From the sequence record NC_047822.1: a DNA stretch of 64,000 nucleotides. The stretch is one strand, 5' to 3'. Positions 6,223 to 51,401 of the stretch are shown piece after piece; position 1 is the first letter of the stretch; the number at the start of each line of letters is the position of its first letter. The DNA comes from Escherichia phage phiLLS. The notes beneath the pieces are model-generated. The model saw only the letters and a list, made by a program, of their open reading frames with translations, was not told where the DNA came from and made no database searches. The translations under genes and the position numbers were made by a program.

Positions 6223-6251
6223 TTGCTTAAATCTCTCTAATTTAGTATAAT
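6223..6251 (+). promoter_or_regulatory. T5-type early promoter
   Basis: -35 TTGCTT, 17-bp spacer, -10 TATAAT. Confidence 0.55.
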
Positions 6252-6278
6252 ATTTGTATTGAAAGTGAGGAGGGCTTT

Positions 6279-6557: not shown

Positions 6558-6573
6558 TTTTTAAAAAATTCAT

Positions 6574-6602
6574 TTGCTAAACGCTTCAAATTCTCGTATA
6601 AT
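6574..6602 (+). promoter_or_regulatory. T5-type early promoter
   Basis: -35 TTGCTA, 17-bp spacer, -10 TATAAT. Confidence 0.55.
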
Positions 6603-6640
6603 ATACTTCATAAATTGATAAACAAAAAGGAAAATAAATA

Positions 6641-7156: not shown

Positions 7157-7219
7157 TAGATAAATAGGGGCTTCTGCCCCTAGAATCTACTAATTCTCTA
7201 ACTAATCAAGGATATTTTT

Positions 7220-7435
7220 ATGTTCTCTAAGAAACCACGTTCTGTTACTGAAATCGTTGCTTCCTTTACCATCATCACTGATGAGCTTCAAGCTCGTATT
7301 GAGGCTGATCAAAAAATTGCTGCGGATATTCAGAAACAGCAGGAAGAACTCGCTTTAAAGTTGGCTGAAACCAACAAGAGTGAAAAATCTGCCCAAACTA
7401 TTATGGAAAATATCCTTAAACTGCTGGGCAAGTGA
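7220..7435 (+). CDS. Hypothetical protein
   Basis: 71-aa ORF with RBS; predicted helical. Confidence 0.4.
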   Translation: MFSKKPRSVTEIVASFTIITDELQARIEADQKIAADIQKQQEELALKLAETNKSEKSAQTIMENILKLLGK

Positions 7436-7741
7436 TTTAAATCAGGGGGCGAAAGCCACTCTTATTTGGAGAAACTATGCGTAATTTTGTAGCAAAGAAT
7501 GATTTTAACCGTGCTAGCACCCATAAGTCAGCTAGGGATTATACATGACTTTCTAGTCATGAGGTAATGGATGCCTGTTATGAAGAGCTGGAAGGTAGCT
7601 GGAATGAATGGCCCGACTTCTCTATGGAAGAGAACTGGGATGTCAGTGAGGATATGCTTCCTGGTTTTAAAGACCCCAAGAAGTGGGAGTCTATTAAAGA
7701 GACAGCTCTTTAATAGTTTTCTACACAATAAAGGATAAGTT

Positions 7742-8443
7742 ATGAAAGTAAAACCATTTGGTATGCTAGATATTGAATCTCTAGGAACTCCAGGAGATTG
7801 TGGTACTACTCATATCGCAATGCCTTCTTTCGCTTTTGTGGCTATGCATGGGATTGACAAAGACCCTGACTTAGTATTTGTTACTTTGGATGTGCAGGAT
7901 CAGCTTAATTCTGGTGCCAAAGTTACAGCATCTACTCTAGCATTCTGGATGGATCAAGCTAAAAATAGCCCCTCTGCTATTCACATAATGGAAGCTATGA
8001 AGGAACGTAATCCAAAACTGATTGCCTTCCAAAATGGTAAACATCACTGTACTAATAAGCTCGGCTCTAACTATGCTGCCTTCTCTATGGCTCAAAATAT
8101 TATGGAGTTGGCTCTAGGCGAAAATGCTTTGTATTATGGCAATGGCCCAGAGTTTGATATGACTATCTACTCTGCAAACACGTTCCATGCTGGAACCAAT
8201 GAAGAGGTAGTTCCGTGGAAATTCTGGAATTTGGGTAATGTTCGATCTCTTCGTAATCTCTGGATGCAAGCTGGATACAGTTATAAGGCTCTAGAGACCG
8301 AAGCTATTAGCTGGGCAATAGCTAAAATGGAGAAGATGGACACCATTCGTTATGGGATCTATCCGGTTAAGCACGACCCAGCATTCGATGCACTAGTTGA
8401 GGGCTATTGTGTTGCAGCTATGATCGAAAAAATGAAAATTTGA
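7742..8443 (+). CDS. DEDDh-type 3'-5' exonuclease (DnaQ-like)
   Basis: Exo I motif LDIESLG and Exo III-like H-x4-D (HDPAFDA). Confidence 0.6.
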   Translation: MKVKPFGMLDIESLGTPGDCGTTHIAMPSFAFVAMHGIDKDPDLVFVTLDVQDQLNSGAKVTASTLAFWMDQAKNSPSAIHIMEAMKERNPKLIAFQNGKHHCTNKLGSNYAAFSMAQNIMELALGENALYYGNGPEFDMTIYSANTFHAGTNEEVVPWKFWNLGNVRSLRNLWMQAGYSYKALETEAISWAIAKMEKMDTIRYGIYPVKHDPAFDALVEGYCVAAMIEKMKI

Positions 8444-8444
8444 T

Positions 8445-8473
8445 TTGCTTCCGGCTTCAAAATTCTGTATAAT
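8445..8473 (+). promoter_or_regulatory. T5-type early promoter
   Basis: -35 TTGCTT, 17-bp spacer, -10 TATAAT. Confidence 0.55.
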
Positions 8474-8513
8474 ATATTCATAAATTTGAGAAAACAATAA
8501 AAGGAAAACAAAT

Positions 8514-8696
8514 ATGCCAGTATCTAAAAATGTTCGTAAAAATGGTAAGAAAGCTACTCGTAATCTGGGTATCCGTCGTATGGCTGAACGTCAATCAGGT
8601 GTCCAGAAAATCTTTGATCTGCTAAATCGTGCTAATCCTAAAATTGATAACAGTAACGATACTGTTCTACGCACTCTGCTGGCAATTGGTCTGTAA
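8514..8696 (+). CDS. Hypothetical small basic protein
   Basis: 60-aa ORF with RBS after promoter. Confidence 0.45.
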   Translation: MPVSKNVRKNGKKATRNLGIRRMAERQSGVQKIFDLLNRANPKIDNSNDTVLRTLLAIGL

Positions 8697-8749
8697 TAGA
8701 CCAACTTTAAACAAATTCAAATCTCAAACTTCATATAAGGAAGCAAATA

Positions 8750-9388
8750 ATGACTACTCGTATTTCTAAAACTCGCGCTCTAGCAACTATCAAATCTCTG
8801 GAAGCTAAAATCCGTAAAGCTACTGAACAGCAGCTTCTGATCGCTGTTGGTGAAGGTAAGGATAAAAACCAGGTTGTAGTTGGCGCTGCAATCGAAGTAG
8901 CTGATCTGTCTACTCGTATTAAGACTGATTTCCAGTCTCTGCTGGATATGATGTCCCAGCGTGATTGTATCAAAGCTGCTCTGATTAAAAGCAATGCGGA
9001 AACAATCGTTGAGATTGGCTCTCGTAAGATGACTGTTGCGGAAGCAATTGAAGCTAAGCGTTCTATGGAACTTAAAGCCCAATTGCTGGCTAACATGCGT
9101 AAGCAGTTCCATGCCGCTACGGTTAAGTTTAATACGCAGAAAGCACAGTTTGATGCTAAATATGAGCGTTTGCAGGATAGCATGGCTACCCGCGATAAGA
9201 AAACTTCCGAAGATGAAGTTAAAATGCAGCTCAACCTGCTGGAACTCAAGAATACTCCATTCTTGATTGATCCGCTGGAACTGGAAAAGCTGATTAAGCA
9301 GCATGACGAGGAATACCAGGACTTTGCAACAAATGTTGACTTTGTTCTGTCCGAGTCTAACGCCTCTACCTTCATTGAAGTAGAGTAA
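8750..9388 (+). CDS. Hypothetical protein
   Basis: 212-aa ORF with RBS; helical; the overlapping minus-strand ORFs are judged spurious. Confidence 0.55.
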   Translation: MTTRISKTRALATIKSLEAKIRKATEQQLLIAVGEGKDKNQVVVGAAIEVADLSTRIKTDFQSLLDMMSQRDCIKAALIKSNAETIVEIGSRKMTVAEAIEAKRSMELKAQLLANMRKQFHAATVKFNTQKAQFDAKYERLQDSMATRDKKTSEDEVKMQLNLLELKNTPFLIDPLELEKLIKQHDEEYQDFATNVDFVLSESNASTFIEVE

Positions 9389-9771
9389 TAATTTAAAAGC
9401 TAGTAAATCGGTAGACGAAAGCCCAAGCATCTTACCTCGCAGCAGCGGTTGAAATACGAGGTTAAATAAGACCGCTGACCATACTATAAAATATAATCTA
9501 TTGGAGATTATGTTTATTACACCAGCCTTTTAAGCTGACACGTAAGAACAAAGCGTCGTTGATATTACCGACACAACTTCAAAGATCAACATTTAAGTAT
9601 GAAAGCTGAAAAGTTTAAAGAACTCAAACTTCTAAACTTCTAAAGCTAAAAGATGCAAAGTATTCGTTGATGATTCAAACCCTAGATCAAAGGTACATGG
9701 CTCATAAGATATGGCCTGTGGCGCCTCTAGGCTGTTTATCGGTTTACTAGTTTCACAATTTAAAAATGTAT

Positions 9772-9800
9772 TTGCTAATTTACTAAGTTATCTGTATAAT
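9772..9800 (+). promoter_or_regulatory. T5-type early promoter
   Basis: -35 TTGCTA, 17-bp spacer, -10 TATAAT. Confidence 0.55.
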
Positions 9801-9830
9801 ATATTTTTAAATTGATGAAACGAGGCTATT

Positions 9831-10148
9831 ATGACTTTTCATATTTTGATTGATGATGTGCGTAATCTTCACGGAATGGACATTATCATTCGAACCCCAG
9901 AAGCCGCTGTCGAGTTTCTGAATAAAACTGATACCACAGGCCACTTCGTTTATATGGATAATGACTTGGCTGTAGATGGTATGGAAGGTTATCAAATTCT
10001 TCGTTTACTCTTAGAATTTGGGCAGAGACCAAAGAAAGTGGTACTAGTAACCTCGAACCCAGTAGCTAAGCAACATATGCGTAATGATTTGCTTGACTTA
10101 GGGTACAAAGAAAGCCCCAATCGTGTTGAATATGATTGGCAGGAGTAA
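9831..10148 (+). CDS. Hypothetical protein
   Basis: 105-aa ORF with RBS after promoter. Confidence 0.5.
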   Translation: MTFHILIDDVRNLHGMDIIIRTPEAAVEFLNKTDTTGHFVYMDNDLAVDGMEGYQILRLLLEFGQRPKKVVLVTSNPVAKQHMRNDLLDLGYKESPNRVEYDWQE

Positions 10149-10153
10149 AAAGA

Positions 10154-10603
10154 ATGAAGGCAGCTTTGCTTTTAGTAGCTGCCCTTACCTTCAGCTTTAG
10201 TAGTCAGGCATCGCACGATGCAAAAGAAATAGATTGCATTGCTAAAAATATCTATTTCGAAAGTCGTGGTGAGGGCATAAAGGGAATGACGGCGATTGCA
10301 CACGTTACTAAAAACCGTGTAAACTCCGGTAAATTCCCAGATTCCTACTGTAAAGTAGTATATCAGTCTAACCAGTTCTCTTGGGTATCTAAGAGACCAA
10401 AAGTTGATAAAACTGATGAGGCTTGGCAAACCGCTAAGAATTTAGCTAGAGTGATATACTACGTTGATTTACCACAAGATCCTACACATGGAGCACTATA
10501 CTTCCATAGTGGTAAAGATAAACCTTACTGGACAAAGAAGTTTAAGAAAACAACTAAGATTAAGGGACATACGTTTTATAAACCTGTTGTCACTAAAACT
10601 TAA
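10154..10603 (+). CDS. Secreted SleB-like cell wall hydrolase (Hydrolase_2 family)
   Basis: Signal peptide then KNIYFESRGE...TAIAHVTKNR...QSNQFSW, typical of SleB-type hydrolases. Confidence 0.7.
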   Translation: MKAALLLVAALTFSFSSQASHDAKEIDCIAKNIYFESRGEGIKGMTAIAHVTKNRVNSGKFPDSYCKVVYQSNQFSWVSKRPKVDKTDEAWQTAKNLARVIYYVDLPQDPTHGALYFHSGKDKPYWTKKFKKTTKIKGHTFYKPVVTKT

Positions 10604-13954: not shown

Positions 13955-14947
13955 TTAAGCCGGCAGTTTAGCCTGCAGACCAGCCAGAGTCTGAGTGATA
14001 GCACCAAGACTTACAGCGATTTGATTAATTACCTGACCGTTAGCACCGTTACCCGCAGCGATTGCTTCACGTAGGCGACATGCATCTAACTCATCCTGAA
14101 TACGAGCAGTAGTTACACCAGCGATAGCAGTCTGAAGTTCACAGCAACATTCAGCGATCTGACGTTCCAGAGAGTTCTGGTTAGCACACATCTGAGCCTG
14201 AACAGCGGCAAACTGGTTATTAGTTTGTAAAGTCTGCTGGAAAGCGATCTGTGCAGAATCAAACTTATCTTGTGCACGAGCTATCTGATTAGCTGCGAAA
14301 GATTGATCAATCTGGCGAGAAAGATCGAACTGACCCTGAATAACGTTGCGAGTTTCCTGACAGATCTGATTAGACAGATTAGCACCTGTACCATAGATCG
14401 TAGTTAGTACAGACTGAGTATCACGGCTCTGGTTTTGGGATGTCTGGCTAAACCCATTGTTAACTGCGCTTAAAACAGCTCCAGTACCCTGGTTAGCTTC
14501 TGTACGAGTAGTGTTAATAGCTGCTAGAATACTAGCGGTATCTTGGTTCTGAAGTACTGCATCAACTGCGGTACCATCACCAACTACACCACGTCCACCG
14601 AATCCACCGAAACCACCGAATCCGCCTGTTAATAGAGCACCGATTAGGATAGCTCCGAATAGTCCCATACCTTCACCACCGAAAGCACCTGCGTTTGCTG
14701 GGTAACCACCCAGTAGGCCAGGGAAGCCACTAGTAAATACGTTTACTGGTTCTTGCATTTTATGTTTTCCATATTTATGACAATGTTCATCGTCATCTTC
14801 TTCATCATCGTGTTCACGATGTTTTTCTTCGTAGGCTCTGACCTTCTCCCACTTTTTCTTATCTGATTCCTCGTGACGGTGCAGTTCTGCTGCAACGCTA
14901 GCGACGGTCTCAGGACTCTTAGCTACTTCTTCTGTCATTTTTGACAC
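13955..14947 (-). CDS. Hypothetical Gly-rich and Gln/Asn-rich protein
   Basis: 330 aa; acidic His-rich N-terminus, glycine-zipper hydrophobic segment (GGFGGFGGFGG), C-terminal Cys cluster; strong AGGAGGTG RBS. Confidence 0.55.
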   Translation of the reverse strand: MSKMTEEVAKSPETVASVAAELHRHEESDKKKWEKVRAYEEKHREHDDEEDDDEHCHKYGKHKMQEPVNVFTSGFPGLLGGYPANAGAFGGEGMGLFGAILIGALLTGGFGGFGGFGGRGVVGDGTAVDAVLQNQDTASILAAINTTRTEANQGTGAVLSAVNNGFSQTSQNQSRDTQSVLTTIYGTGANLSNQICQETRNVIQGQFDLSRQIDQSFAANQIARAQDKFDSAQIAFQQTLQTNNQFAAVQAQMCANQNSLERQIAECCCELQTAIAGVTTARIQDELDACRLREAIAAGNGANGQVINQIAVSLGAITQTLAGLQAKLPA

Positions 14948-41406: not shown

Positions 41407-41918
41407 GATCCTGCATGTCTCGGTGCACAATACCTGTACCGAGACAGAAATACAAACTCTCGTTGACAGATAGCTAAATGTATGTTATCATAACTCTATG
41501 AGTTAATAGAATTAACCATTTAGAGTTGCCACACAGAAGGTGTGGTGGTTCAGTAATTTAAAATTACTAACTTGTAGCGGAGGATACGGAGCGACAGGAC
41601 AAGTTAATAAGTAATTTAATATAAATTGCTAGAAACATCACGAGACCTTCTGGCGGGGGCAAAGCTCTATATGAGAACCCTGGGGGATCTTATATTTAAA
41701 ATAAAAGTAAAACTTTTGACCACATAATTTACATTCAAGATGATACACCTGTTGCCGCTCTTCTGTTAGGATGGCACAACACTTTCCTAGAAACTCCAGA
41801 GTTCTCACGAGATACCACTCTTTCTAGGAACATATACTAGGCGGTTAATACAGGGCGGTTATAGGGAGGGCGGTTATTTCTAGAAGACATTTTTTGAAAA
41901 CACATTTCCAGAAATTAC

Positions 41919-42519
41919 TGTCGGATTTGCACACTGATATTCTAGAAATTTATGGTAGGATTTGCACAAATGCCTAAGTTTTTAGGAACTCTTACTCTCC
42001 TGAAAATAGCAGCATTATTTCGGGCCGAAGGCCCATGATTGCCTGAGTTTTTAGAGCCACAGAAATTTTCACTTGTCAAGCTATTTTGCCCCATTTTGCT
42101 AATAAAATTTCGCTTTTTCTGCACCTATCTCAAATTAACCCAAGTTATCTCACATCTCCTCCAAAATCCCCGCGGATCAGGTGCTCCGCACCAAACATGC
42201 GCTACATCCTTCTAGCCCCCAAATTTCTCTCACTCTCTCATCTTCTCCTCAAACCCACACAATCACACACCCTCCAATCGAAGTCACAAAAATCTTGTCG
42301 GATTCGCACATCTTAATCCTAGAAAAACCGTGTCGGATTTGCACATACTCCACAGGATTGATGCGCAGCATCGGATTGCTGGAGTTTTTGGAAAAATTCA
42401 TTGTCGGATTTGCACACTATAAAAATTTTTCGGGTCGGATTTGCACACTACCAAAAATTGTCGGATTTGCACATACGTGCCCGCACGTAACACCCGTGGA
42501 GCAATGTCGGATTTGCACA
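41919..42519. repeat. Array of at least 6 direct repeats TGTCGGATTTGCACA with degenerate copies
   Basis: Copies at 41919, 42332, 42402, 42435, 42459, 42505; variants at 41957 and 42296; irregular spacing. Confidence 0.8.
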
Positions 42520-42520
42520 A

Positions 42521-42546
42521 AAGCGCAGGGCAATTGCCCTGCGCTA
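42521..42546. repeat. Perfect palindrome agcgcagggcaattgccctgcgct
   Basis: 11-bp arms around a central AATT. Confidence 0.8.
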
Positions 42547-42770
42547 AATACGAATGATAATAAGAATCATTCTCATTTAAAAAGCGGAATGAGAATGATA
42601 ATAATTCGCATTTAGAAAGTGAAATGAGAATCAATCTCATTTAAGAAAGGGAATGAGAACTATTCAAAAAGTGAAATGATTCTCATTTAGGAAAGGAAAT
42701 GATTATCGGTTAGATAGTGGAATGCGAATGATAATGATTTGCATTTAAGAATGGAAGTGAGAAACACTGT
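42547..42770. repeat. Array of about 8 imperfect AT-rich palindromic units (Fur-box-like)
   Basis: Units contain AATGATAAT / GATAATGAT / ATTCTCATT; spacing 21-40 bp, each ending CATTTAAGAAAG-like. Confidence 0.7.
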
Positions 42771-42845
42771 TATTTAAGTTATCCACAGACTTATCAACAG
42801 CACGATTTGACTTGACAGAATCCTAGCCATTTTGAAGCGTTATTA

Positions 42846-42886
42846 ACAGACTTATCCACAGCTTATCCTACTGTATAAATATACAG
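42846..42886. repeat. Inverted repeat, left arm (41 bp, contains a DnaA-box-like TTATCCACA)
   Basis: 40/41 match to the reverse complement of 45894-45934. Confidence 0.85.
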
Positions 42887-43001
42887 TATTCCTACGTAGT
42901 GAATAATTCTAATATACCGCTAAAACGTCCTGAATCGCATTCTAACGCGTTTAATTTTGGTGGGGATACTAAAACAAGGGGGTATTTAACTGGAGGCATG
43001 G

Positions 43002-43023
43002 AAAAACGGGGAGCTAATCCCCG
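43002..43023 (-). terminator. Rho-independent terminator for the minus-strand cassette
   Basis: Minus-strand hairpin cggggattagctccccg followed by TTTTT. Confidence 0.55.
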
Positions 43024-43139
43024 TCGTTCTCAGAGTAGCGGGCAACCGTTACGCTTTGCCCACTCCCGCCACTCATCTTGATGTCTAGATTTGCGACGGC
43101 GTACTAAAAACCGCTTATACCAGTGATTAAACCATCGTT

Positions 43140-43343
43140 TCATAAACCATCCTCCGGTAATTGATGCGTGATCTTTTCCTCTTCCCCATAGGAATCGACC
43201 AAATGCTGATAATAACCATCGTGATCATAAATCACTTTATCATACTCGCCACGCTCGACCGCTTGCCGGTTTTCTGGCGTATCGGGCACGTAAAAAACGT
43301 CAACCATTGTACTGATTTTGGTTACAACAATTTTATTGCTCAT
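43140..43343 (-). CDS. Hypothetical acidic protein
   Basis: 67-aa minus-strand ORF inside the inverted-repeat-bounded segment. Confidence 0.45.
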   Translation of the reverse strand: MSNKIVVTKISTMVDVFYVPDTPENRQAVERGEYDKVIYDHDGYYQHLVDSYGEEEKITHQLPEDGL

Positions 43344-43361
43344 AATAACCCCCGTTATTAA

Positions 43362-43520
43362 TTATTTGCGTAAATATACGCTTGCCAATAGTCCAGCTAG
43401 AAAGCCCGCCGATACACCAAATGAAGCCACACCGGGAACACTAGCACCATGAGCATATAAAGCCCAGCAAATTACATAAGGCAACAACGGAAACATGCCA
43501 GCTATTAAAAACTTTTTCAT
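43362..43520 (-). CDS. Hypothetical small membrane protein (52 aa)
   Basis: Hydrophobic ORF whose ATG overlaps the upstream stop; below ORF-track cutoff. Confidence 0.35.
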   Translation of the reverse strand: MKKFLIAGMFPLLPYVICWALYAHGASVPGVASFGVSAGFLAGLLASVYLRK

Positions 43521-43861
43521 TGCGCCACCTTTCGAAACGCTGTTTCAATACTATCCGCAGTGGATTGAATATACGCGCCTTTCATTACTAGGCGCTCGGT
43601 GCATATCTTGCGGAAAATATTAATAAAATCATCTTCATTTTCTGCAATTAACGCTTCACCCATAACCTGAACGTCACAAGATGCAAAGGTCAAAAATTGA
43701 AACGCTAGTTCACGGGCAACGACCGCATTAATCTTATAATGCGCTTTGCCCTCATAAATATTAATAACGCCCTTATAAGCTGGTGAAAGCTGGTTTAAAT
43801 AGTTTGCTAACAATGCCGGGCGGCAATTAGCAACAAAGCGGTTGCCTTCATAAATAACCAT
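43517..43861 (-). CDS. Hypothetical protein
   Basis: ORF-track 43517-43900; internal ATG at 43861 avoids overlap with the upstream gene. Confidence 0.45.
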   Translation of the reverse strand: MVIYEGNRFVANCRPALLANYLNQLSPAYKGVINIYEGKAHYKINAVVARELAFQFLTFASCDVQVMGEALIAENEDDFINIFRKICTERLVMKGAYIQSTADSIETAFRKVAQ

Positions 43862-43862
43862 T

Positions 43863-44075
43863 TTATAACACCCCACGAAACGCAGCGTAAAAGGTGGCAA
43901 AGTGTTTAACCGTTTCAGCGATCACGTTGCCGCGCTTGTCAAATTTCTTTTCTGTAACACGAAAGGCATTCTTATTACGTGCTACATATTCGATTTTACA
44001 ATCTTCACGCTCGAACGTGTTAACATCCACCAGCTTAAAGCCTTTCGAACGAGCAAGAGAAACGTTGCGGATCAT
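43863..44075 (-). CDS. Hypothetical small basic protein
   Basis: 70-aa minus-strand ORF. Confidence 0.45.
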   Translation of the reverse strand: MIRNVSLARSKGFKLVDVNTFEREDCKIEYVARNKNAFRVTEKKFDKRGNVIAETVKHFATFYAAFRGVL

Positions 44076-44273
44076 TTTTATTCTCCTTTACTAGTCATGC
44101 AGCCCAGCAGATAAGAAAAAACGGCGATACCCGCGCCGACAATAACGGCGTGAACGTCGAAAGCTATAGCAAAAAGTGATAAAATAGCACCCAAGATACC
44201 TGCTAGAATTGACCGAAAAATAACCATTTTCATTCCCCTAGTTAATGGGGCGAAAGTAACGCCCCGTTATTAA

Positions 44274-44504
44274 TTACATTAAAACAATTTTTGCAGCTTG
44301 TTTTTTAGTACAGTGTTCCGCTTTCAGGGTATCCAGCAAAAAGCCCGCTGTTTGCTGATCAATCTTATCAGCGTTGTATAGTTCTTGGATGGTGTTATAG
44401 GTTTTAGCAATGCCGAACTCCTGCACCATTTCATGAATAACAACACGATTAGATACCCAACCTTGCGCGGTGAACAGATGACTAGCAGAAGAATAAGCAA
44501 CCAT
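44274..44504 (-). CDS. Hypothetical protein
   Basis: Internal ATG of ORF-track 44274-44561 preceded by a strong GGAGG RBS. Confidence 0.5.
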   Translation of the reverse strand: MVAYSSASHLFTAQGWVSNRVVIHEMVQEFGIAKTYNTIQELYNADKIDQQTAGFLLDTLKAEHCTKKQAAKIVLM

Positions 44505-44621
44505 TTTAAACCTCCAAATTTTTGGGAAAATTTTCAATCCACCGTTTTGGTGTAAAAGCATTATAACAAAAAAGGCCGCCTATTATGGCGACCTTTACAA
44601 AACTTTACACTAAATTAATTA

Positions 44622-45626
44622 TTACTCGCTTTCGGTGCTAGTGGTAAAAGTAGAAATATCAATACCTTTCACCATTTCATCGATCATTTCAGCGATGTTA
44701 AAACTTTGCACCATTTCTAACATTGCCGCTTCCATAGCGGCCCCTGCTACCGCTTTCGCTTTCTGGTTGCTTGGGGCATACTGGTCAACCGCTACGCTCA
44801 GCAGGTTGGCAATTACTACTCGACCGATAGGCGTATCAATATAACCTTTAATCATGAACGGTGCTTTTTTAGCCGCTACTTTCGTAATTTGAGTAAGTGC
44901 AATTTTACCCGCTTCCAGTTTTGCAGCGTTTACAACAGCGGATTTATTAGCGGCAACAATGTTAGCAATCTTGGTCATAGTATTTTTTCCTTTGTTTTCA
45001 GTGATTTGAGTATTAACGCTTTGAGTGTTAGAATTTACAACATGGTTTTCTGTATTGTCAACTGGTTTTAGCGTAAATCCAGCATTTGCAACATTTGATT
45101 CATTCCCATATTCTAAATAATCGCTAGGGATCAACATGTTGCCACTAGCGCGTTCAAAACATAACACGCCAGTTGTAGAAATTACATCACTATCAGCACT
45201 TTTGTAATTAGCTGATAGTTCACGCCAAATGCTAGTTAATAACGATCCGACACTATCAGTCCTGATATTACTTACTTTTGTTGCTGTTACTTGCTCTTTT
45301 TCTTGCACGTTATATAATCGCGCAATGTAGCCACTATTAGATTCACTATAACCAACAATGATAAAATCAATATCACTCCCACGTTGATTGCGGAAAATGT
45401 GATAATCACGGTTGAAAATTACTAGCGCCCTTTTCTGGTCTAGTAATTGTGTGAAATCTTCAACTGAATAATGAGTATCATTACTGTCTAAAATTTCATC
45501 ATGAATCTTTTCAACCATGCTAGCGGTATGTTGTACACTTGCCGCGCTACTACCATCTAGCAGGTTGCGCAAACTACCCTTTACAATAGTTGCGTTTGCT
45601 GGTACTGCAATTCTAGTAAAAGACAT
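44622..45626 (-). CDS. Hypothetical protein (334 aa)
   Basis: Long minus-strand ORF with GAGGGAG RBS; first gene of the cassette; no motif recognised. Confidence 0.6.
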   Translation of the reverse strand: MSFTRIAVPANATIVKGSLRNLLDGSSAASVQHTASMVEKIHDEILDSNDTHYSVEDFTQLLDQKRALVIFNRDYHIFRNQRGSDIDFIIVGYSESNSGYIARLYNVQEKEQVTATKVSNIRTDSVGSLLTSIWRELSANYKSADSDVISTTGVLCFERASGNMLIPSDYLEYGNESNVANAGFTLKPVDNTENHVVNSNTQSVNTQITENKGKNTMTKIANIVAANKSAVVNAAKLEAGKIALTQITKVAAKKAPFMIKGYIDTPIGRVVIANLLSVAVDQYAPSNQKAKAVAGAAMEAAMLEMVQSFNIAEMIDEMVKGIDISTFTTSTESE

Positions 45627-45893
45627 TTTCTTGTCTCCCTCGTTAATCGGTGAGTAAATGATAAAGGTATTTTCTTTCTAGGGGCAAATATTATTTTACC
45701 TTTTTATTTTCCTTGCCTAGCGCCTAGTTTTATGCTAACCGCGCAGCGGTACAGTAAAGAGCAAAACACGGTGAAGCCGCTAGGGCGGCGCATTGAGGCT
45801 TTACTTTAATATTACCCCCACTGCATTTAGCTCGTTAGAAAGCGATTTAGGCCGCTTAAAATTGATTGCAGTTGTTAACACTACCTTTCTACC

Positions 45894-45934
45894 CTGTATA
45901 TTTATACAGTAGGATAATCTGTGGATAAGTCTGT
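45894..45934. repeat. Inverted repeat, right arm (41 bp)
   Basis: Reverse complement of 42846-42886 with one mismatch; contains CTGTGGATAAG. Confidence 0.85.
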
Positions 45935-46440
45935 GTAAAAGTCCTTATATCGCCGCCTATCGTGTCAAATCATTTTGTGCTGTGGATAACGTTGGGGATA
46001 ACTTAAATGATAGTGGTTCTCACTCAGGCCGATAGTTTCTTATAGTTATTATTTCTATCGGTTACGATTTCTTATAGTTATTATTTCTCATTAATTTATA
46101 AGTATATTATATATTATGGAATAGTTAGTTGGCTAATGAGATTTTCCGTGATTAATAGTCTGCTAATAGTTTAAGCCGTTACAATCCACCAGCATGATTA
46201 TCGTTCTAGCAATTATTAGTCTGCTATCTTTCCGATGCATACTAACAAATAAAAGTCAATTAATTTATTTCATAAAATAAGTAGTTATCCACTGGAAAAT
46301 AAAAGTCAAGTGGATAACTAGGAAAATTTCATTTTTGCTTCTGGGGATAAGTTATCAACAAGGCTAGAATGCGCCTAAAACGCCCTACAACGCAGTAAAG
46401 TTTTTAGCCATCCCATCATAAGGGGATAAGCCGTTTATCG
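45920..46440. promoter_or_regulatory. Cluster of DnaA-box-like 9-mers (TTATCCACA family)
   Basis: GTGGATAAG 45922, TGTGGATAA 45981, GGGGATAAC 45995, TTATCCACT 46285, GTGGATAAC 46310, GGGGATAAG 46343 and 46432, TTATCAACA 46352. Confidence 0.5.
46036..46088. repeat. Tandem direct repeat, 2 x 21 bp (TTTCTTATAGTTATTATTTCT)
   Basis: Identical copies at 46036-46056 and 46068-46088. Confidence 0.8.
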
Positions 46441-46764
46441 CTGCCACGAGCTTTTTAGATTTTGTCAAGTAGGGCAAGGCAAATATAAATGAAAAAATTA
46501 CTTGCTTATCTGCTGGGTTTTATGGTATTCGCGCGCCCGTTTCTTTTAATTTTAGGCCGTCGCCGGACGCGGTGCGAGTATTTGCCTTCTTTACATTTCT
46601 TTACAAAAATAAGGTTGCGCCTTTTTCGTTGTTTGTTATTATTTATCTCGTAGGGCGGCAATGACGAACTACACGGCGGGAAGTTTACCGCCGCGCTCTT
46701 TAAAAATTGGGTATATCTTAAAGTCTATCGGCGGTAAACTTATCAATTATAAGGAATCGACGAT

Positions 46765-46968
46765 ATGAAACAAACTTTACTAATCACTGGTAAACCTAGC
46801 AAGGCACTGGACAGCAAAACAAAAAATTTGTTGACAGTAGCGCAAAGATCGGTAAAATATCGATTTAAGCAGTACAAGAAAGGCCGCCAGCAAGGTCTGG
46901 AAATGATCTGGCGAAATATTATGATTGACCTGAAAGAAAATCATAAAAAACTGCAAAAAATAGTTTGA
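46765..46968 (+). CDS. Hypothetical small basic protein
   Basis: 67-aa ORF with AAGGAA RBS; first + strand gene after the repeat region. Confidence 0.45.
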   Translation: MKQTLLITGKPSKALDSKTKNLLTVAQRSVKYRFKQYKKGRQQGLEMIWRNIMIDLKENHKKLQKIV

Positions 46969-47196
46969 CTTCCTAGCCGATAGGCTTTAAGATGTACCCA
47001 GTTCGATGAGAGTGATAACTTGATACAATTTGACGGCCGGTACTTGCCATAATGTGCCCCGCCCCCTAACTGGGATATAGCGGCCTGAGTGGAGTTCTTT
47101 AATTTGATTATAATGGCGAGTGGATTTTTTCTTATTATCTGCTACTTTCTAGCAGATAATGCGGAACAATCCACTGAATAAACTGGAGTTTATACC

Positions 47197-47448
47197 ATGA
47201 AAAACGTTATTACCGCGCCGAAAGTTGGTCAATCCGTTTTTATTCCTTTCGTTACTAAAACGGACGAATTAACCGGAAAAGCCGAACGTATTAAAGGTGC
47301 GGCGCTTATGCCGTTCGATACAATCGACGCGGTATACGCTGAAAATGAACGCAGCAACAACGGAAAGCCCGTTTTTAGCGTTCGCGTTAAATCCGGCGAC
47401 GTTGTAAAGGTTGTTCAACGCAACGAAAAATGGGAAGCTGTGTTGTAA
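47197..47448 (+). CDS. Hypothetical protein
   Basis: 83-aa ORF; 10-bp perfect hairpin downstream. Confidence 0.5.
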   Translation: MKNVITAPKVGQSVFIPFVTKTDELTGKAERIKGAALMPFDTIDAVYAENERSNNGKPVFSVRVKSGDVVKVVQRNEKWEAVL

Positions 47449-47546
47449 TTTAGTGTTAACTTTATATTCCCCTGAAATATGGGGAATATAACGATTAACA
47501 TTATGTTAATCTTATCCCTTAAATTAAATCAACAGGAGTTACAATC

Positions 47547-47954
47547 ATGACTAACGTTAAAACCGCAAAATTCGCATGGAATGAAGAAAACACTCAGAAA
47601 GCTGTTTCCATGTACCAGCAGTTAATCAATGAAAACGGTTTAGATTTCGCAAATAGCGACGGCCTGAAAGAGATTGCAAAAGCAGTAGGCGCGGCTTCTC
47701 CCGTATCCGTTCGCTCAAAATTGACCAGCGCGAAAGCGTATCAGAAAAGCGATAAGCCGCGCAAAGTTGGCGGCGGCAGTTCAATCCGCAAAGCTCACTA
47801 TGTACGCGTTATTGCAAAACATGCCATTGATTCCGGCATTATCAAAGACGCTGACGATCTGGCATCACTGGAAAGCGCAAAACTGGAAACGCTGGACGCA
47901 GTAGCACAACTGTTAGGCGTTGCCGATGAAGTAAAACAAGCCGCAGGCGAATAA
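47547..47954 (+). CDS. Pre-early A2-like protein (putative)
   Basis: 135 aa with AGGAG RBS, immediately upstream of the A1-like gene; assignment from synteny and size only. Confidence 0.4.
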   Translation: MTNVKTAKFAWNEENTQKAVSMYQQLINENGLDFANSDGLKEIAKAVGAASPVSVRSKLTSAKAYQKSDKPRKVGGGSSIRKAHYVRVIAKHAIDSGIIKDADDLASLESAKLETLDAVAQLLGVADEVKQAAGE

Positions 47955-48012
47955 ATTTAATTAGTGGGGAATACTCCCCACTATAATTTCCCTTAAATCA
48001 GGAGTTATTAAA

Positions 48013-48210
48013 ATGATCTTTTACCCTACTGAATCGTTAATTCTAGGCTTGTTTATTATGGCGGCCTCATTACTATTCGCTTATTTTCAAAATGATCTGG
48101 ATTCGTATTATTTTAAGCGCAAAGCTAATCTAGCAAAGCGTTTGGGCTTATTTTGCTTTATTGCCGCCGTTGTTTGTGGTGTTAGTTCTAGCCTGATGCC
48201 GATTAGTTAA
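48013..48210 (+). CDS. Hypothetical small membrane protein
   Basis: 65-aa ORF, two hydrophobic segments, AGGAG RBS. Confidence 0.45.
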   Translation: MIFYPTESLILGLFIMAASLLFAYFQNDLDSYYFKRKANLAKRLGLFCFIAAVVCGVSSSLMPIS

Positions 48211-48306
48211 ATGTTGCAAATTATAACGCCTATTATTCAAGGCGTTATATCTGGCAATATTGCCAATAACAAACGTTTTTAATCCCTTTAATGGAGTTTT
48301 ATTATC

Positions 48307-49977
48307 ATGGTTATTTCCGCAGAAAAACAAACCCAGATCCTCAATCTTGCCGCTGATTTCAATTTCTATGGTAAACGTCTGCGCGCTACTAAACTGGAAG
48401 TTTGTGACGATATATCAAAAGCGGTTTACGATACTGCAAAACATTCCACCGCGATTTGTGACTGGTTGGAAGCAAATAAACCAGCGAAACCAAAAGCGGC
48501 GAAAGTAGCAAAAGCCATTAAAAACGATGACCGCCCTGAAGCCGCCGGAGTTATTTCTAGCACGGTGGAGCAATGGGAAGTAAAGCAGGGCAACCGCTTC
48601 ATTATCACATCAATCCAGAACAACACGTTCCCGCATAAAAACTTTTTAGCCTCGCTCGAGCAATATGCCCAGTTTATTGGCGCTGATTTGCTTGTTAGCA
48701 AGTTTATTTATAACAAAAACGGTTTTCAAAATGGGGAAGGCGCGGACGGAATAAAATACGATTCCGCGTTTGACAAATATATCTGCAATAAGAACGTATT
48801 TTTAAACAATCGCCGTTTTGCTTTCATGGCTGAGATTAATGTTTTGCCCACCGCAGATTATCCGCTATCTGGATTCGCTGAAACTGCAACGGCTTTAAAT
48901 ATTGAGGGTCTGGCAATTGGGGCGGCTAAAATCACCGCCGAAAGCGTGCCAGCTTTAAAAGGTGAAGTAGTGCGCCGCATGTATTCAACGGGAACGGCAA
49001 CGCTAAAAAACTATATTCAGCAAAAAGCAGGGCAAAAAGCGGAGGCGCTACATAACTTTGGGGCGCTGATTGTTGAGTTCGACGAAGACGGTGAATTTTT
49101 TGTTCGCCAGCTTGAAACGATGGATGAAAGCGGCGTTTTTTACGATTTGAATATTTGCGCTACTCCCGCCGGATGCTATGAAACATCGGGGCATGTTTTA
49201 GGCTTGCAATATGGTGACGTCCACGCTGAAAAACTAGATGAAGAGTGCGCCGCAGCGTCATGGGGACACGGTGACACCTACGGGCTTGTGGATATTCTCA
49301 AGCCAAAATATCAATTCGTCCATGACGTGCATGATTTTACATCACGCAACCATCACAACCGCGCCTCTGGTGTATTCCTAGCAAAACAATACGCCGCCGG
49401 ACGTGATAAGGTTCTGGATGATCTTATCGATACGGGGCGCGTACTGGAAGCAATGGAGCGCGATTTCTCGCAAACAATCATTGTTGAATCTAACCATGAT
49501 CTGGCGTTATCTCGTTGGCTTGATGATCGTAATGCTAACATTAAAGACGACCCAGCAAACGCGGAACTATATCACCGCCTTAATGCTGCAATTTACGGAG
49601 CTATTGCAGAAAAAGACGACACTTTCAACGTGCTAGATTATGCGCTGCGCAAGGTTGCAGGCTGCGAGTTTAACGCTATTTTCCTAACGACTGACCAATC
49701 ATTTAAAATTGCAGGCATCGAGTGCGGCGTACACGGTCACAATGGCATAAACGGCAGTCGTGGCAATCCGAAACAGTTCAAGAAATTGGGCAAATTAAAC
49801 ACGGGGCACACTCATACCGCCAGCATTTACGGCGGCGTATATACCGCTGGCGTGTCTGGTAGTCTGGACATGGGCTATAATGTTGGCGCGTCAAGCTGGA
49901 CGCAAACGCATGTTATTACCTATGCAAACGGTCAGCGCACTTTGATTGACTTTAAAAACGGTAAATTTTTCGCGTAA
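48307..49977 (+). CDS. Pre-early A1-like protein, metallophosphatase-fold nuclease
   Basis: 556 aa; metallophosphatase motifs GDVH, HDVHD, ESNHD. Confidence 0.6.
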   Translation: MVISAEKQTQILNLAADFNFYGKRLRATKLEVCDDISKAVYDTAKHSTAICDWLEANKPAKPKAAKVAKAIKNDDRPEAAGVISSTVEQWEVKQGNRFIITSIQNNTFPHKNFLASLEQYAQFIGADLLVSKFIYNKNGFQNGEGADGIKYDSAFDKYICNKNVFLNNRRFAFMAEINVLPTADYPLSGFAETATALNIEGLAIGAAKITAESVPALKGEVVRRMYSTGTATLKNYIQQKAGQKAEALHNFGALIVEFDEDGEFFVRQLETMDESGVFYDLNICATPAGCYETSGHVLGLQYGDVHAEKLDEECAAASWGHGDTYGLVDILKPKYQFVHDVHDFTSRNHHNRASGVFLAKQYAAGRDKVLDDLIDTGRVLEAMERDFSQTIIVESNHDLALSRWLDDRNANIKDDPANAELYHRLNAAIYGAIAEKDDTFNVLDYALRKVAGCEFNAIFLTTDQSFKIAGIECGVHGHNGINGSRGNPKQFKKLGKLNTGHTHTASIYGGVYTAGVSGSLDMGYNVGASSWTQTHVITYANGQRTLIDFKNGKFFA

Positions 49978-50050
49978 ATAAATCAGGTTGGCGGCTTGAA
50001 ATATGGCCGCCATTATAAAAGTTTATTAAATTAATTGGAGTTTTATAAAT

Positions 50051-50443
50051 ATGAAAAAGCAAAATATCCCATTCGATCGCGCTCAGTCTTCTATTGTTCT
50101 AGTTTATTCTAGTGGTGAGCGCTATCACGTCGAGGCGGGGCACGTTGTTGATGATTTAATCGAGTTTAACGAGGCGCTACAGATCACTACTTTCGCCTAT
50201 ACCACGGGCAAACTATCAAGCCGCATCAAGGCGAAAGGCGTTTATATTGACACGATGAAGCAGGAAACGATTATCATTGACGCGGTGAAGTCCGGTCTAG
50301 CCTTTGCAGTTGTCGCGCCTTGTCCCGCTTGTCTTGATGATCAGTTAATGAGCGCGAAGGTATTCACATGCGCGGGCATTCGTTCCAGCGTATCAGGTGA
50401 GGATATTAGTTTTATCGCTGATGCGCTTGCGTTTGGCCTTTAA
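50051..50443 (+). CDS. Hypothetical protein
   Basis: 130-aa ORF with GGAG RBS. Confidence 0.5.
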   Translation: MKKQNIPFDRAQSSIVLVYSSGERYHVEAGHVVDDLIEFNEALQITTFAYTTGKLSSRIKAKGVYIDTMKQETIIIDAVKSGLAFAVVAPCPACLDDQLMSAKVFTCAGIRSSVSGEDISFIADALAFGL

Positions 50444-50517
50444 TAGCTGGACTAGTCCAGCCCATCCAGCGGGCTGGATTAATTTAATTTAATCCCTTAA
50501 ACGGAGAACGTAACAAA

Positions 50518-51237
50518 ATGAAGATTACCCGTAATTTCCCGCATGTTTCCCGCGTCATGATTTGGGATCTGGATGGCACTATCGTTAACTCATTCCATCG
50601 CGTAGCGCCTTGCTTTGATAGTGAGGGCAATCTAGATCTAAATAAGTATAAAAATGAAGCGTGTAAACATGCTTTGATAATGCAAGATACACTGTTACCG
50701 CTTGTTACCTATATGCGCCAGTGCATGAATGACGCCAACACGTTAAACATTATTTGTACCGCTCGACTAATGAGCAAATCAGATTACTATTACCTACGGA
50801 AGCAAGGGCTGCGAGGGCGTGGGGGTAGCAATATCCGCGTATTTTCCCGCGATACACTGCACAAATATTTTGAAGCTGATAAGGTTAGCGAAATATACCA
50901 CAGCAAAGACGCTATATATAAAAGCCACTATTTTGAGTTATTTAAGCAATTATATCCGAACGCTGATTTCACGATGATTGATGATCATAAAGGCGTGCTA
51001 TCAGCGGCGGCATCATACGGATTTAAAACGCTGGACGCGCAAGCCGTTAACGATATTCTATCGATTGGGGTTACATTGATAGGTGAAACCTTTATCGATG
51101 AATCTCTTGAGGATGATAATGATTATCAGTTCCTGGCCGACCGCCTGCAATTATGTTGGGAAGGTATGACCGAAGAAGAACGCGCAGAATATAGTTGCAG
51201 CCCGCAACAATATATTGAGAAATTAAAAGTTGCGTAA
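50518..51237 (+). CDS. HAD-superfamily 5'-deoxyribonucleotidase-like protein (dmp-like)
   Basis: HAD motif I (IWDLDGTIV) near the N-terminus; 239 aa. Confidence 0.5.
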   Translation: MKITRNFPHVSRVMIWDLDGTIVNSFHRVAPCFDSEGNLDLNKYKNEACKHALIMQDTLLPLVTYMRQCMNDANTLNIICTARLMSKSDYYYLRKQGLRGRGGSNIRVFSRDTLHKYFEADKVSEIYHSKDAIYKSHYFELFKQLYPNADFTMIDDHKGVLSAAASYGFKTLDAQAVNDILSIGVTLIGETFIDESLEDDNDYQFLADRLQLCWEGMTEEERAEYSCSPQQYIEKLKVA

Positions 51238-51401
51238 TAATTAAAGTTGAAATTGTTTCACCTTGCAATTAAAATGGTTGCAGGGTGAAACAGTTAGCAT
51301 GGTAATAGTAACGGGGGTGGCGGTTAGCAGACTAAGTATTTTCGCCGGAGGCAGTGAGCACATCCTCATGTGTAATCTTATGAAATTTCGAGATTTCCAA
51401 A

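What the first reader, a model, noticed from the sequence alone, without database searches (positions are those of the whole stretch)
42846..45934. 41-bp inverted repeats bracket a 3-kb minus-strand gene cassette of different composition
Arms at 42846-42886 and 45894-45934 are reverse complements (40/41), each containing a DnaA-box-like motif and a short internal palindrome, with weaker similarity extending about 70 bp outward. The enclosed segment carries six or seven translationally coupled minus-strand genes, all of unknown function, with visibly higher GC than the surrounding phage DNA and its own minus-strand terminator. It could be an invertible or mobile segment, an acquired module, or part of the terminal-repeat architecture.
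Basis: seen in the sequence. Interest (0 to 1): 0.7.

Follow-up and report, generated by a model that had tools for sequence, protein, structure and literature searches.

The report
Known T5 terminal-repeat inverted repeats
The inverted repeats are real, but they are the already published repeats that flank one early operon in the terminal repeat of T5-like phages; they are not a mobile or switchable element, although their short palindrome reads as a near-perfect binding site for the host SOS repressor LexA, which no paper I could search mentions.

Summary
The window is a T5-like phage (Tequintavirus), read in reverse of the canonical T5 orientation. The terminal repeat, assembled as a single copy, spans about 42,060-51,360. 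The 41-nt arms (40/41) are real. They are the cores of longer two-part arms, 42756-42901 and 45879-46024.

These arms are the published IRD'-spacer-IRC' / IRC-spacer-IRD repeats of the T5 left terminal repeat (Wang 2005; Davison 2015, 2020). They carry eight DnaA boxes in pairs 3 bp apart. One arm lies next to the injection stop signal. The cassette is the rightward pre-early operon, T5 genes 011-017.

No recombinase or transposase is present. GC content is not anomalous. All 40 close relatives examined have the same orientation, and none of 537 phage records carries the inverted junction. The two arms do not co-evolve.

Two further points came out of the analysis. First, the internal palindrome scores as a top-tier LexA operator and is conserved across Demerecviridae. 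Second, the operon is flipped in Sugarlandvirus and Myunavirus, so inversion has happened during evolution.

Verdict: the feature is already known. It is most likely a cis-acting array of host-protein binding sites. Its function has not been tested experimentally.

The parts
42756..42901 (+). Arm A, next to the injection stop signal (T5 IRC'-spacer-IRD', read in reverse of canonical T5). It has an outer conserved block, an arm-specific spacer and an inner conserved core.
   Evidence: (I1). It is 94% identical to T5 9396-9541 and 89-99% identical in 40 relatives. It lies inside the T5 'injection stop signal' feature, 9140-10149.
45879..46024 (-). Arm B, on the A2 side (T5 IRC-spacer-IRD). It is the reverse complement of arm A.
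   Evidence: (I1). It maps to T5 6098-6228. It is a distinct paralogue with its own spacer.
42779..42799 (+). Outer DnaA-box pair of arm A: TTATCCACA gac TTATCAACA.
   Evidence: The arrangement is as described in Davison 2020.
42840..42860 (+). Inner DnaA-box pair of arm A: TTATTAACA gac TTATCCACA. It is followed by a degenerate third box, TTATCCTAC, that overlaps the palindrome.
42869..42888 (.). LexA-type (SOS box) palindrome of arm A: TACTGTATAAATATACAGTA, 19/20 matches to the consensus.
   Evidence: It scores 26.2 bits on a matrix built from 18 E. coli SOS boxes. That is above every genuine box when each is left out in turn (maximum 24.3) and above every shuffle (maximum 19.1).
45892..45911 (.). 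LexA-type palindrome of arm B: on the + strand CCCTGTATATTTATACAGTA.
   Evidence: It scores 22.2 bits, the second best site in the 64 kb.
45920..45940 (-). Inner DnaA-box pair of arm B: TTTTACACA gac TTATCCACA on the minus strand.
45981..46001 (-). Outer DnaA-box pair of arm B: TTATCCCCA acg TTATCCACA on the minus strand.
42889..42980 (+). Inward extension of arm A, flavour X (TCTAATATACCGCTAAAACG...). It is weakly repeated in inverted form at 45800-45891, which is flavour Y.
45633..45711 (-). Promoter region of the cassette operon, placed by homology to the annotated T5 promoter at 6411-6489.
   Evidence: Promoter-like hexamers lie at 45719-45690 and 45687-45658.
44622..45626 (-). 334-aa protein, homologue of T5 gene 011 (DUF7566, PHROG 4263). 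Gene 011 is toxic when expressed alone. Its fold was not recognisable.
44571..44596 (-). Internal intrinsic terminator after the 334-aa gene.
   Evidence: T5 has a terminator at the equivalent place, 7534-7559.
44274..44504 (-). 76-aa protein (T5 012 homologue, PHROG 5145).
44078..44233 (-). 51-aa membrane protein (T5 013 homologue, PHROG 5607).
43863..44075 (-). 70-aa protein, homologue of the T5 protein that nicks abasic sites made by host Ung. This is gene 015 of Mahata 2021 and RefSeq locus tag T5.014.
   Evidence: (PHROG 4227, E = 4e-50)
43517..43864 (-). 115-aa protein (PHROG 4379).
43362..43520 (-). 52-aa hydrophobic protein (PHROG 35622). It is present in only some relatives.
43140..43343 (-). 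67-aa protein (T5.017 homologue, PHROG 6973).
43030..43143 (-). 37-aa ORF, annotated in some relatives.
42999..43032 (-). Operon-end intrinsic terminator: a hairpin (ACGGGGAU-UAGC-UCCCCGU) followed by a run of U.
   Evidence: It corresponds to the T5 terminator at 9275-9296.

Best explanation
Shown. The two arms are the published IRD'-spacer-IRC' and IRC-spacer-IRD non-coding modules of the T5-type terminal repeat, which is the DNA delivered in the first step of injection. They flank the rightward pre-early operon (T5 genes 011-017), which has its own promoter and terminators. Each arm is an ordered array of sites that match host DNA-binding proteins. From outside to inside: a pair of DnaA boxes, a spacer specific to that arm, a second pair of DnaA boxes, and a near-consensus LexA operator facing the operon. 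Each arm is conserved independently of the other, and the module is found across the family Demerecviridae.

Inferred. The arms act in cis as protein-binding sites on the first DNA to enter the cell. The arm beside the injection stop signal is the important copy, because it is the last DNA inside the cell when injection pauses. [quoted passage not shown] The A2-side copy is an accessory duplicate. Because the two modules are inverted copies, they have occasionally served as substrates for homologous recombination. That flipped the operon in some genera, with no cost because the operon carries its own promoter and terminators.

The element is not a transposon and not a programmed switch.
For: Identity with the published repeats:
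- The best DNA matches are Tequintavirus genomes, and the region maps to T5 LTR positions 5-10,436.
- The arms map to T5 6098-6228 and 9396-9541. The second lies inside the annotated injection stop signal.
- The two-part arms, the eight DnaA boxes in pairs 3 bp apart, and arms better conserved than the operon between them all match Davison 2020.

Selection on each copy:
- Orthologous arms are 89-99% identical across 40 loci, while the 334-aa protein falls to about 60% and the distance between arms ranges from 1.85 to 4.2 kb.
- Identity between the two 41-nt cores within a genome is 0.920, the same as between cores from different genomes (0.920), so there is no concerted evolution.

Host-factor sites:
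- The LexA matrix scores are 26.2 and 22.2 bits, against 17.7 for the next best site in the window and 19.1 for the best shuffle.
- In the 46 of 47 fetched loci that contain CTGT-N8-ACAG, almost every match I could place lies at an arm position.
- The combination of a DnaA-box pair and a LexA-type box is also present in Sugarland, My1, Pantoea AAS21, Proteus phage 1, Vibrio D325 and Thalassa. Their A1 proteins are down to 30-35% identical to the window's.

Arm B is dispensable:
- A T5 mutant deleted from hegG to 017 is viable. By position, that deletion removes arm B.
- Type 4 phages lack IRC/IRD.

Evolutionary inversion:
- The same order of protein families (PHROG 4263, 6741, 4379, 6973) runs the other way in My1. 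Three of them (4263, 6741 and, weakly at E = 1e-5, 4379) run the other way in Sugarland. In both, the operon ends beside the A2-side arm.
- The flanks just inside the arms are swapped between T5-likes and Sugarland.
Against: - No experiment has tested these repeats. The BF23 paper says so explicitly, and a 2026 paper still calls the mechanism poorly understood.
- Binding of DnaA or LexA to these sites is predicted from sequence only.
- Viability of the hegG-017 deletion shows that the pair of arms as such is not essential.
- T5-like phages ESCO30 and ESCO40 are propagated on DH5a, which I recall to be recA1. LexA cleavage therefore cannot be required for growth.
- The LexA boxes do not overlap the mapped operon promoter. 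They lie about 200 bp upstream of it.
- Conservation of the palindrome could equally reflect a phage protein such as the A2 dimer.
- AAS21 has swapped inner flanks but the T5-like operon orientation. A single clean arm-to-arm inversion therefore does not explain all lineages.
Confidence: 0.75

Rival explanations
1. Programmed invertible segment. A site-specific recombinase flips the cassette between the arms to switch expression, as in the Mu G, P1 C or Salmonella hin segments.
For: Inverted repeats bracket a gene block. The palindrome has a 2-bp asymmetric centre (AA or TT) whose orientation varies between genomes. The operon is flipped in Sugarland and My1.
Against: - No recombinase domain appears in any of the eight cassette proteins, and the neighbours are known T5 pre-early genes.
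- The operon carries its own promoter and terminators, so flipping would not switch anything.
- All 40 close relatives have one orientation.
- None of 537 records has the inverted junction.
Confidence: 0.03
2. Mobile element or recently acquired module. The arms would be terminal inverted repeats of a transposon-like cassette inserted into the phage.
For: The segment has terminal inverted repeats, variable gene content between the arms, and slightly higher GC than the early region to its left.
Against: - No transposase.
- No matching sequence just outside the two arms, by eye only.
- The arms sit at the same locus in every Demerecviridae genus examined.
- The arms are much better conserved than the cargo, and arm A is embedded in the stop-signal repeats.
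- GC is within the window's normal range and below that of the adjacent A1 block.
- No match in the plasmid collection.
Confidence: 0.03
3. Transcriptional control elements. LexA, possibly with DnaA, bound at the arms represses or insulates pre-early transcription. For example, it could control a leftward promoter at arm B or block read-through toward the stop-signal region. In this reading the arms have nothing to do with the injection stop.
For: - The LexA boxes are of operator quality.
- A promoter-like site, TTAACA-16-TATATT at 45875-45902(+), has its -10 element inside the arm B box.
- In Proteus phage 1 a LexA box persists alone in the divergent intergenic region without DnaA boxes.
- Arm A sits just downstream of the operon terminator.
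Against: - The experimentally mapped T5 promoters are elsewhere.
- The promoter-like match is a weak consensus hit, and LexA boxes are TA-rich by nature.
- Arm A has no plausible promoter to control.
- Deletion of the whole right half of the first-step DNA gives only small plaques.
Confidence: 0.2
4. Phage-protein sites. The palindrome and its neighbouring boxes would be recognised by the A2 dimer or the A1-A2 complex to restart or process the DNA. The resemblance to LexA and DnaA sites would then be incidental.
For: A2 is a dimeric DNA-binding protein required for second-step transfer. Davison proposed cleavage at a palindrome in this region. The palindrome is the best conserved element of the arms.
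Against: - The motif stays at the gammaproteobacterial LexA consensus while A2 and A1 diverge strongly. A2 is 66% identical in Sugarland, and A1 is 30-35% identical in Vibrio phages.
- The boxes next to it match the universal DnaA consensus.
- The proposed cleavage site was to the right of the stop signal, not in arm B.
Confidence: 0.15

Closest known systems
IRC-spacer-IRD / IRD'-spacer-IRC' inverted repeats of the bacteriophage T5 left terminal repeat (Heusterspreute 1987; Wang 2005; Davison 2015 and bioRxiv 10.1101/866236)
   Same: Same locus, same two-part arm structure, and the same eight DnaA or DnaA-like boxes in pairs 3 bp apart. It has the same neighbours: the stop-signal repeats on one side and the hdi/A2/A1 operon on the other. 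The arms are 94% and 78% identical to those of T5.
   Different: Nothing essential. This genome lacks the hegG insertion and has a 334-aa gene 011 allele only 61% identical to that of T5. The LexA-type reading of the palindrome (Davison's 'palD') and the homology of the flipped operons are not in the texts I could read.
Site-specific invertible segments (Mu G/Gin, P1 C/Cin, Salmonella hin)
   Same: Inverted repeats bracket a gene block of a few kb in a phage genome.
   Different: There is no invertase gene and no alternative gene halves, and expression does not depend on orientation. Orientation is fixed among close relatives.
E. coli SOS boxes (LexA operators, consensus TACTG(TA)5CAGTA)
   Same: The arm A palindrome matches the consensus at 19/20 positions and arm B at 17/20. 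Both score within or above the range of 18 genuine operators.
   Different: They are not placed over a known promoter. They occur as part of a composite module with DnaA boxes on a virulent phage. Binding has not been tested.
DnaA-box clusters of oriC-type origins and DnaA-titrating loci (datA, DARS)
   Same: Closely spaced DnaA boxes in a fixed arrangement in non-coding DNA.
   Different: T5 replication origins map near the genome centre. There is no evidence for unwinding elements or replication from this region.

Membership tests
T5-type terminal-repeat IRC/IRD inverted repeat pair | Lies inside the long terminal repeat (first-step-transfer DNA) of a T5-like phage. | tested here: met
   The window maps to T5 LTR 5-10,436, and relatives annotate a left terminal repeat over the match.
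T5-type terminal-repeat IRC/IRD inverted repeat pair | Two-part arms of about 131 nt, with two conserved blocks separated by a spacer of fixed length, in inverted orientation a few kb apart. | tested here: met
   Arms of 146 nt at 75% complementarity with 2,977 nt between them. Two conserved blocks are separated by arm-specific spacers in 30 genomes.
T5-type terminal-repeat IRC/IRD inverted repeat pair | Eight DnaA or DnaA-like boxes, in pairs separated by 3 bp, with two pairs per arm. | tested here: met
   Boxes start at 42779, 42791, 42840 and 42852 (+) and at 45920, 45932, 45981 and 45993 (-).
T5-type terminal-repeat IRC/IRD inverted repeat pair | One arm abuts the injection-stop-signal repeats, and the arms flank the rightward pre-early operon. 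| tested here: met
   Repeat families lie at 41,912-42,760, just outside arm A. Homologues of T5 011-017 lie between the arms.
T5-type terminal-repeat IRC/IRD inverted repeat pair | Functions in stopping or restarting DNA injection. | not testable with these tools
   This is a hypothesis only, and the literature reports no experiments.
Site-specific invertible DNA segment | A recombinase (invertase) is encoded in or next to the segment. | tested here: not met
   Pfam and PHROG scans of all eight cassette proteins give only DUF7566 or families of unknown function, plus the Ung-dependent nickase.
Site-specific invertible DNA segment | Both orientations occur among isolates or within populations. 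| tested here: not met
   There is one orientation in 40 loci, and 0 of 537 records carry the inverted junction. Mixtures within a population cannot be tested without reads.
Site-specific invertible DNA segment | Inversion changes what is expressed. | tested here: not met
   The promoter and terminators lie inside the segment.
Transposon, IS or MITE with terminal inverted repeats | Transposase, target-site duplication, and variable insertion sites. | tested here: not met
   No transposase. No matching sequence just outside the two arms, by eye only. The same locus is occupied in all genera examined.
LexA operator (SOS box) | CTGT-N8-ACAG palindrome with an AT-rich centre, scoring within the range of genuine operators. 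| tested here: met
   Scores of 26.2 and 22.2 bits against 6.7-24.3 for 18 genuine boxes left out in turn. The maximum over shuffles is 19.1.
LexA operator (SOS box) | Overlaps or adjoins a promoter that it represses. | tested here: inconclusive
   Only a weak promoter-like match overlaps the arm B box. The mapped T5 promoters are about 100-200 bp away.
LexA operator (SOS box) | Bound by LexA. | not testable with these tools
   This needs a gel-shift assay, a footprint or ChIP.

The most novel reading that the evidence does not exclude
The palindrome at the inner end of each arm is a real high-affinity LexA operator. T5-type phages would then place a composite DnaA-plus-LexA binding module at both ends of a pre-early operon, and in particular on the last stretch of DNA to enter before injection pauses. 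Host LexA together with DnaA would take part in holding, organising or timing the first-step DNA. The same paired modules would have served at least twice as crossover sites that flipped the operon during Demerecviridae evolution. Neither point appears in the literature I could search. Wang 2005, Davison 2015 and Heusterspreute 1987 could not be read.
Probability: 0.3. Interest if true: 0.65.

Novelty: already known. Interest (0 to 1): 0.35.

Why it matters
As submitted, the finding rediscovers a documented feature of T5-like genomes, so it adds nothing new as it stands.

It does touch an open question. Why T5 DNA injection stops at about 8% of the genome and how it restarts has been unexplained since the 1960s, and the repeats around the stop point have never been tested experimentally. 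If the most conserved element of these repeats is a consensus LexA operator sitting next to DnaA boxes, and if it is conserved out to Vibrio phages, then two specific host proteins and a handful of point mutations become available for direct testing. The flipped operons show that these repeats also shape how the pre-early gene set is rearranged.

Tried and rejected
- Composition as a sign of foreign origin. Rejected: cassette GC is 0.405, within the normal spread of the window.
- Concerted evolution or pairing between the arms. Rejected for the core: within-genome and between-genome identity are both 0.920. Over the whole arm the excess is only 0.4%.
- A junction-coverage survey with the native 3' junction was uninformative, because the genes next to arm A vary between relatives. 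A synthetic inverted-junction query replaced it.
- Function of the 334-aa protein.
  - There is no sequence match to solved structures.
  - The AlphaFold2 model is moderate: pLDDT 69, with the N-terminal domain confident.
  - The 'DNA N-6-adenine methyltransferase' name carried by some database entries has no support from Pfam.
- A test of whether the palindrome changes with the host's LexA specificity. Not possible: the A1-bearing Rhizobium phage RHEph10 has no T5-like pre-early region, and all Demerecviridae seen here infect Gammaproteobacteria.
- A model in which RecA-dependent LexA cleavage triggers the second injection step. Disfavoured, because T5-like phages are propagated on DH5a. That DH5a is recA1 is from my own knowledge.
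- The 60-nt module has no match in the plasmid collection.
- Davison 2015 could not be retrieved. Wang 2005 and Heusterspreute 1987 were not attempted; both are in subscription journals that the library mostly lacks.
- Literature searches linking LexA to the T5 stop signal returned nothing relevant.


Full report
**What the window is.** The 4-kb region around the finding matches 457 phage records, nearly all T5-like phages of Salmonella and Escherichia. The best are Salmonella phages PK7 and PK8 at 92.6% identity. In records that start at the left terminal repeat, the match lies at about 5.2-9.9 kb on the minus strand. The window therefore reads in reverse of the canonical T5 orientation. Alignment to T5 (NC_005859) places T5 positions 5-10,436 at window 51,356-41,838. 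The terminal repeat, 10,219 bp in T5, thus occupies roughly 42,060-51,360 of the window as a single assembled copy. A2 is at 47547-47954(+) and A1 at 48307-49977(+).

**Checking the observation.**
- The 41-nt arms are reverse complements at 40/41. A 42-nt pattern allowing three mismatches finds just these two sites in 64 kb and none in 100 shuffles.
- They are the cores of longer arms, 42756-42901 and 45879-46024, which are 146 nt long and 75% complementary.
- Each arm has an outer conserved block, a spacer that differs between the two arms, and the inner 41-nt core.
- Each arm carries four DnaA-type boxes as two pairs 3 bp apart.
- The internal palindrome is CTGTATAAATATACAG in arm A and CTGTATATTTATACAG in arm B.
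- Between the arms lie eight minus-strand ORFs with overlapping or abutting stops and starts, an internal terminator and a terminal hairpin terminator.
- The composition claim does not hold. Cassette GC is 0.405 against 0.392 for the window. 23% of 3-kb windows are at least as GC-rich, and the adjacent A2-A1-dmp block is 0.438.

**What it is.** This is a published structure. Davison's comparison of 25 T5-like phages (bioRxiv 10.1101/866236) describes the following:
- a 131-bp IRC-spacer-IRD in 'Repeat Region 2' and a nearly identical inverted IRD'-spacer-IRC' in 'Repeat Region 3';
- a 52-bp spacer and eight DnaA or DnaA-like boxes in pairs 3 bp apart;
- strong conservation of the arms, in contrast with the variable coding region of about 3 kb between them.

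The nomenclature goes back to Wang et al. 2005, and the first sequence to Heusterspreute et al. 1987. The window's arm A is 94% identical to T5 9396-9541, inside the annotated injection stop signal. Arm B maps to T5 6098-6228.

The genes between the arms are the homologues of T5 011-017.
- The 70-aa ORF belongs to the family of the T5 protein that nicks abasic sites made by host Ung.
- The 334-aa protein is DUF7566, the T5 gene 011 family.
- A 2026 preprint reports that genes 011, 013 and 015 are toxic when expressed alone, and that genes 011-017 are dispensable.

**Comparative tests of the 'mobile or invertible' idea.**
- In 40 loci fetched around A2 homologues, both arms are always present and the cassette genes are always on the strand opposite to A2.
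- The distance between the arms varies from 1.85 to 4.2 kb through gene gain and loss.
- Orthologous arms are 89-99% identical, whereas the two arms of one genome are about 77% identical.
- In the 41-nt core, identity between the two arms of one genome equals identity between arms from different genomes (0.920 each). The arms therefore do not homogenise each other, and each is held by selection on its own sequence.
- No cassette protein has a recombinase or transposase domain.
- I built a synthetic query that joins the stop-signal side and arm A core to the inner flank of arm B. This is the junction an inversion would create. It is contiguous in none of 537 matching phage records.

Programmed inversion and transposition are therefore not supported.

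**The operon has been flipped during evolution.** In Klebsiella phages Sugarland and IME260 and in Pectobacterium phage My1 the arms are present, but the operon runs in the same direction as A2.
- Davison described this as replacement by other sequences read in the opposite direction.
- The genes are in fact homologous and in the same order. In My1, genes 019 to 016 belong to PHROGs 4263, 6741, 4379 and 6973. This is the order found in T5-likes. The window itself lacks the 6741 gene, which is present in relatives such as oldekolle.
- Sugarland gp014, gp012 and gp011 belong to PHROGs 4263, 6741 and, weakly (E = 1e-5), 4379. Sugarland gp014 is 36% identical to the window's 334-aa protein (E = 4e-40).
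- In both phages the operon ends beside the A2-side arm. In Sugarland a terminator lies about 110 nt from the palindrome, as at the stop-signal side in T5-likes.
- The repeat also continues about 90 nt inward, in two flavours. T5-likes have flavour X on the stop-signal side and Y on the A2 side. Sugarland has the reverse. This is what a crossover within the conserved cores would produce.
- A neighbour-joining tree of A1 places Sugarland as sister to the T5-likes (75% identity) and My1 further out. Pantoea AAS21, Proteus phage 1 and two Vibrio phages keep the T5-like orientation. The DUF7566 proteins give no sign of transfer between My1 and Sugarland. At least two events are therefore needed.
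- AAS21 has swapped flavours but the T5-like operon orientation, which implies a further rearrangement with different breakpoints.
- These inferences rest on one protein tree and on short motifs, and should be treated as moderate.

**The palindrome reads as a LexA operator.**
- Arm A has TACTGTATAAATATACAGTA, which matches the E. coli consensus TACTGTATATATATACAGTA at 19/20 positions.
- I built a position weight matrix from the 18 SOS boxes listed in PMC3009722. Arm A scores 26.2 bits, above every genuine box when each is left out in turn (maximum 24.3). Arm B scores 22.2 bits. The next best site in the window scores 17.7, and the best site in 50 shuffles scores 19.1.
- CTGT-N8-ACAG is found in 46 of 47 fetched loci, and almost every match I could place lies at an arm position.
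- A near-consensus box follows a DnaA-box pair in Sugarland (both arms), My1, AAS21, Proteus phage 1, Vibrio phage D325 and Thalassa.
- In Proteus phage 1 the A2-side region has lost the DnaA boxes but keeps a lone box scoring 24.8 bits.
- The motif stays at the host consensus while A1 falls to 30-35% identity. That argues for a conserved host protein rather than a co-evolving phage protein.
- No paper in the searchable library connects LexA with the T5 stop signal, and Davison 2020 does not mention it. I could not read the three older key papers.

**How it most likely works.**
- Shown: the arms are conserved arrays of sequences that match DnaA and LexA sites. They flank an operon with its own promoter and terminators inside the first-step-transfer DNA.
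- Inferred: they act in cis as protein-binding modules. Arm A is the last DNA to enter before the pause. In T5 the shear point is about 9.6 kb, just beyond it. It is therefore the best candidate for part of the stop or hold mechanism that Davison proposed for DnaA.
- Arm B is an accessory copy. Type 4 phages lack it. The viable T5 deletion from hegG to 017 should remove it, judging by position.
- LexA cleavage cannot be required for growth, because T5-like phages are propagated on DH5a; that DH5a is recA1 is from my own knowledge.
- A role in transcription is a serious rival. The only support is a weak promoter-like match overlapping the arm B box.

**Verdict.** The feature is already known, and its function remains untested. 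The LexA-operator reading and the homologous flipped operons are modest new leads that would need experiments.

Noticed in passing
window 42869-42888 and 45892-45911; also L041 4237-4256 and 8170-8189, L047 5373-5392 and 8911-8930, L048 6164, 9262 and 9939, L049 605: The arms' internal palindrome is a near-consensus LexA (SOS) box. It sits directly after a DnaA-box pair and is conserved across Demerecviridae genera, including Vibrio phages. The searchable literature does not mention it.
   Followed up: yes
L044 (Sugarland) 2645-5745; L045 (My1) 8019-10487: The pre-early operon between the arms is homologous to that of T5, with the same order of protein families, but is flipped relative to A2 in Sugarlandvirus and Myunavirus. 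Davison 2020 described it as a replacement.
   Followed up: yes
window 42889-42980 and 45800-45891; L041, L046, L045: The inverted repeat continues about 90 nt inward in two flavours: X (TCTAATATACCGCTAAAACG) and Y (TCAATTTTAAGCGGCCTA). Which arm carries which flavour is swapped between T5-likes and Sugarland/AAS21. AAS21 nevertheless keeps the T5-like operon orientation, which one inversion cannot explain.
   Followed up: partly
window 41912-42526: Many copies of a GTCGGATTTGCACA-type direct repeat (probably T5 'DRD') span the inner boundary of the terminal repeat.
   Followed up: no
window 42547-42760: Seven copies of a repeat spaced 23-35 nt apart (AATGAGAATGAT...ATTTAAGAAAG), with nested inverted repeats, lie directly outside arm A. 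They correspond to the stop-signal repeats of T5.
   Followed up: no
window 46705-46732 and 46976-47003: A 28-nt inverted repeat (89% complementary) brackets the 67-aa homologue of hdi (T5.008, host division inhibitor) at 46765-46968.
   Followed up: no
window 46036-46056 and 46068-46088; 46282-46320: There is a perfect 21-nt direct repeat 32 nt apart, and a 15+15-nt palindrome containing TTATCCACT, in the non-coding stretch between arm B and hdi.
   Followed up: no
window 44622-45626 (-): Homologues of the 334-aa protein are named 'DNA N-6-adenine methyltransferase' in several UniRef and GenBank entries. Pfam gives only DUF7566, and the predicted structure shows no methyltransferase-like match, so the name looks like a propagated error.
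   Followed up: partly
window 14696-14715: The third-best LexA matrix hit in the window is TGCTGGGTAACCACCCAGTA at 17.7 bits, which is below the best shuffle.
   Followed up: no
window 42000-46000: GC skew is negative only over 42-46 kb, which coincides with the only long run of minus-strand genes in this part of the window.
   Followed up: no
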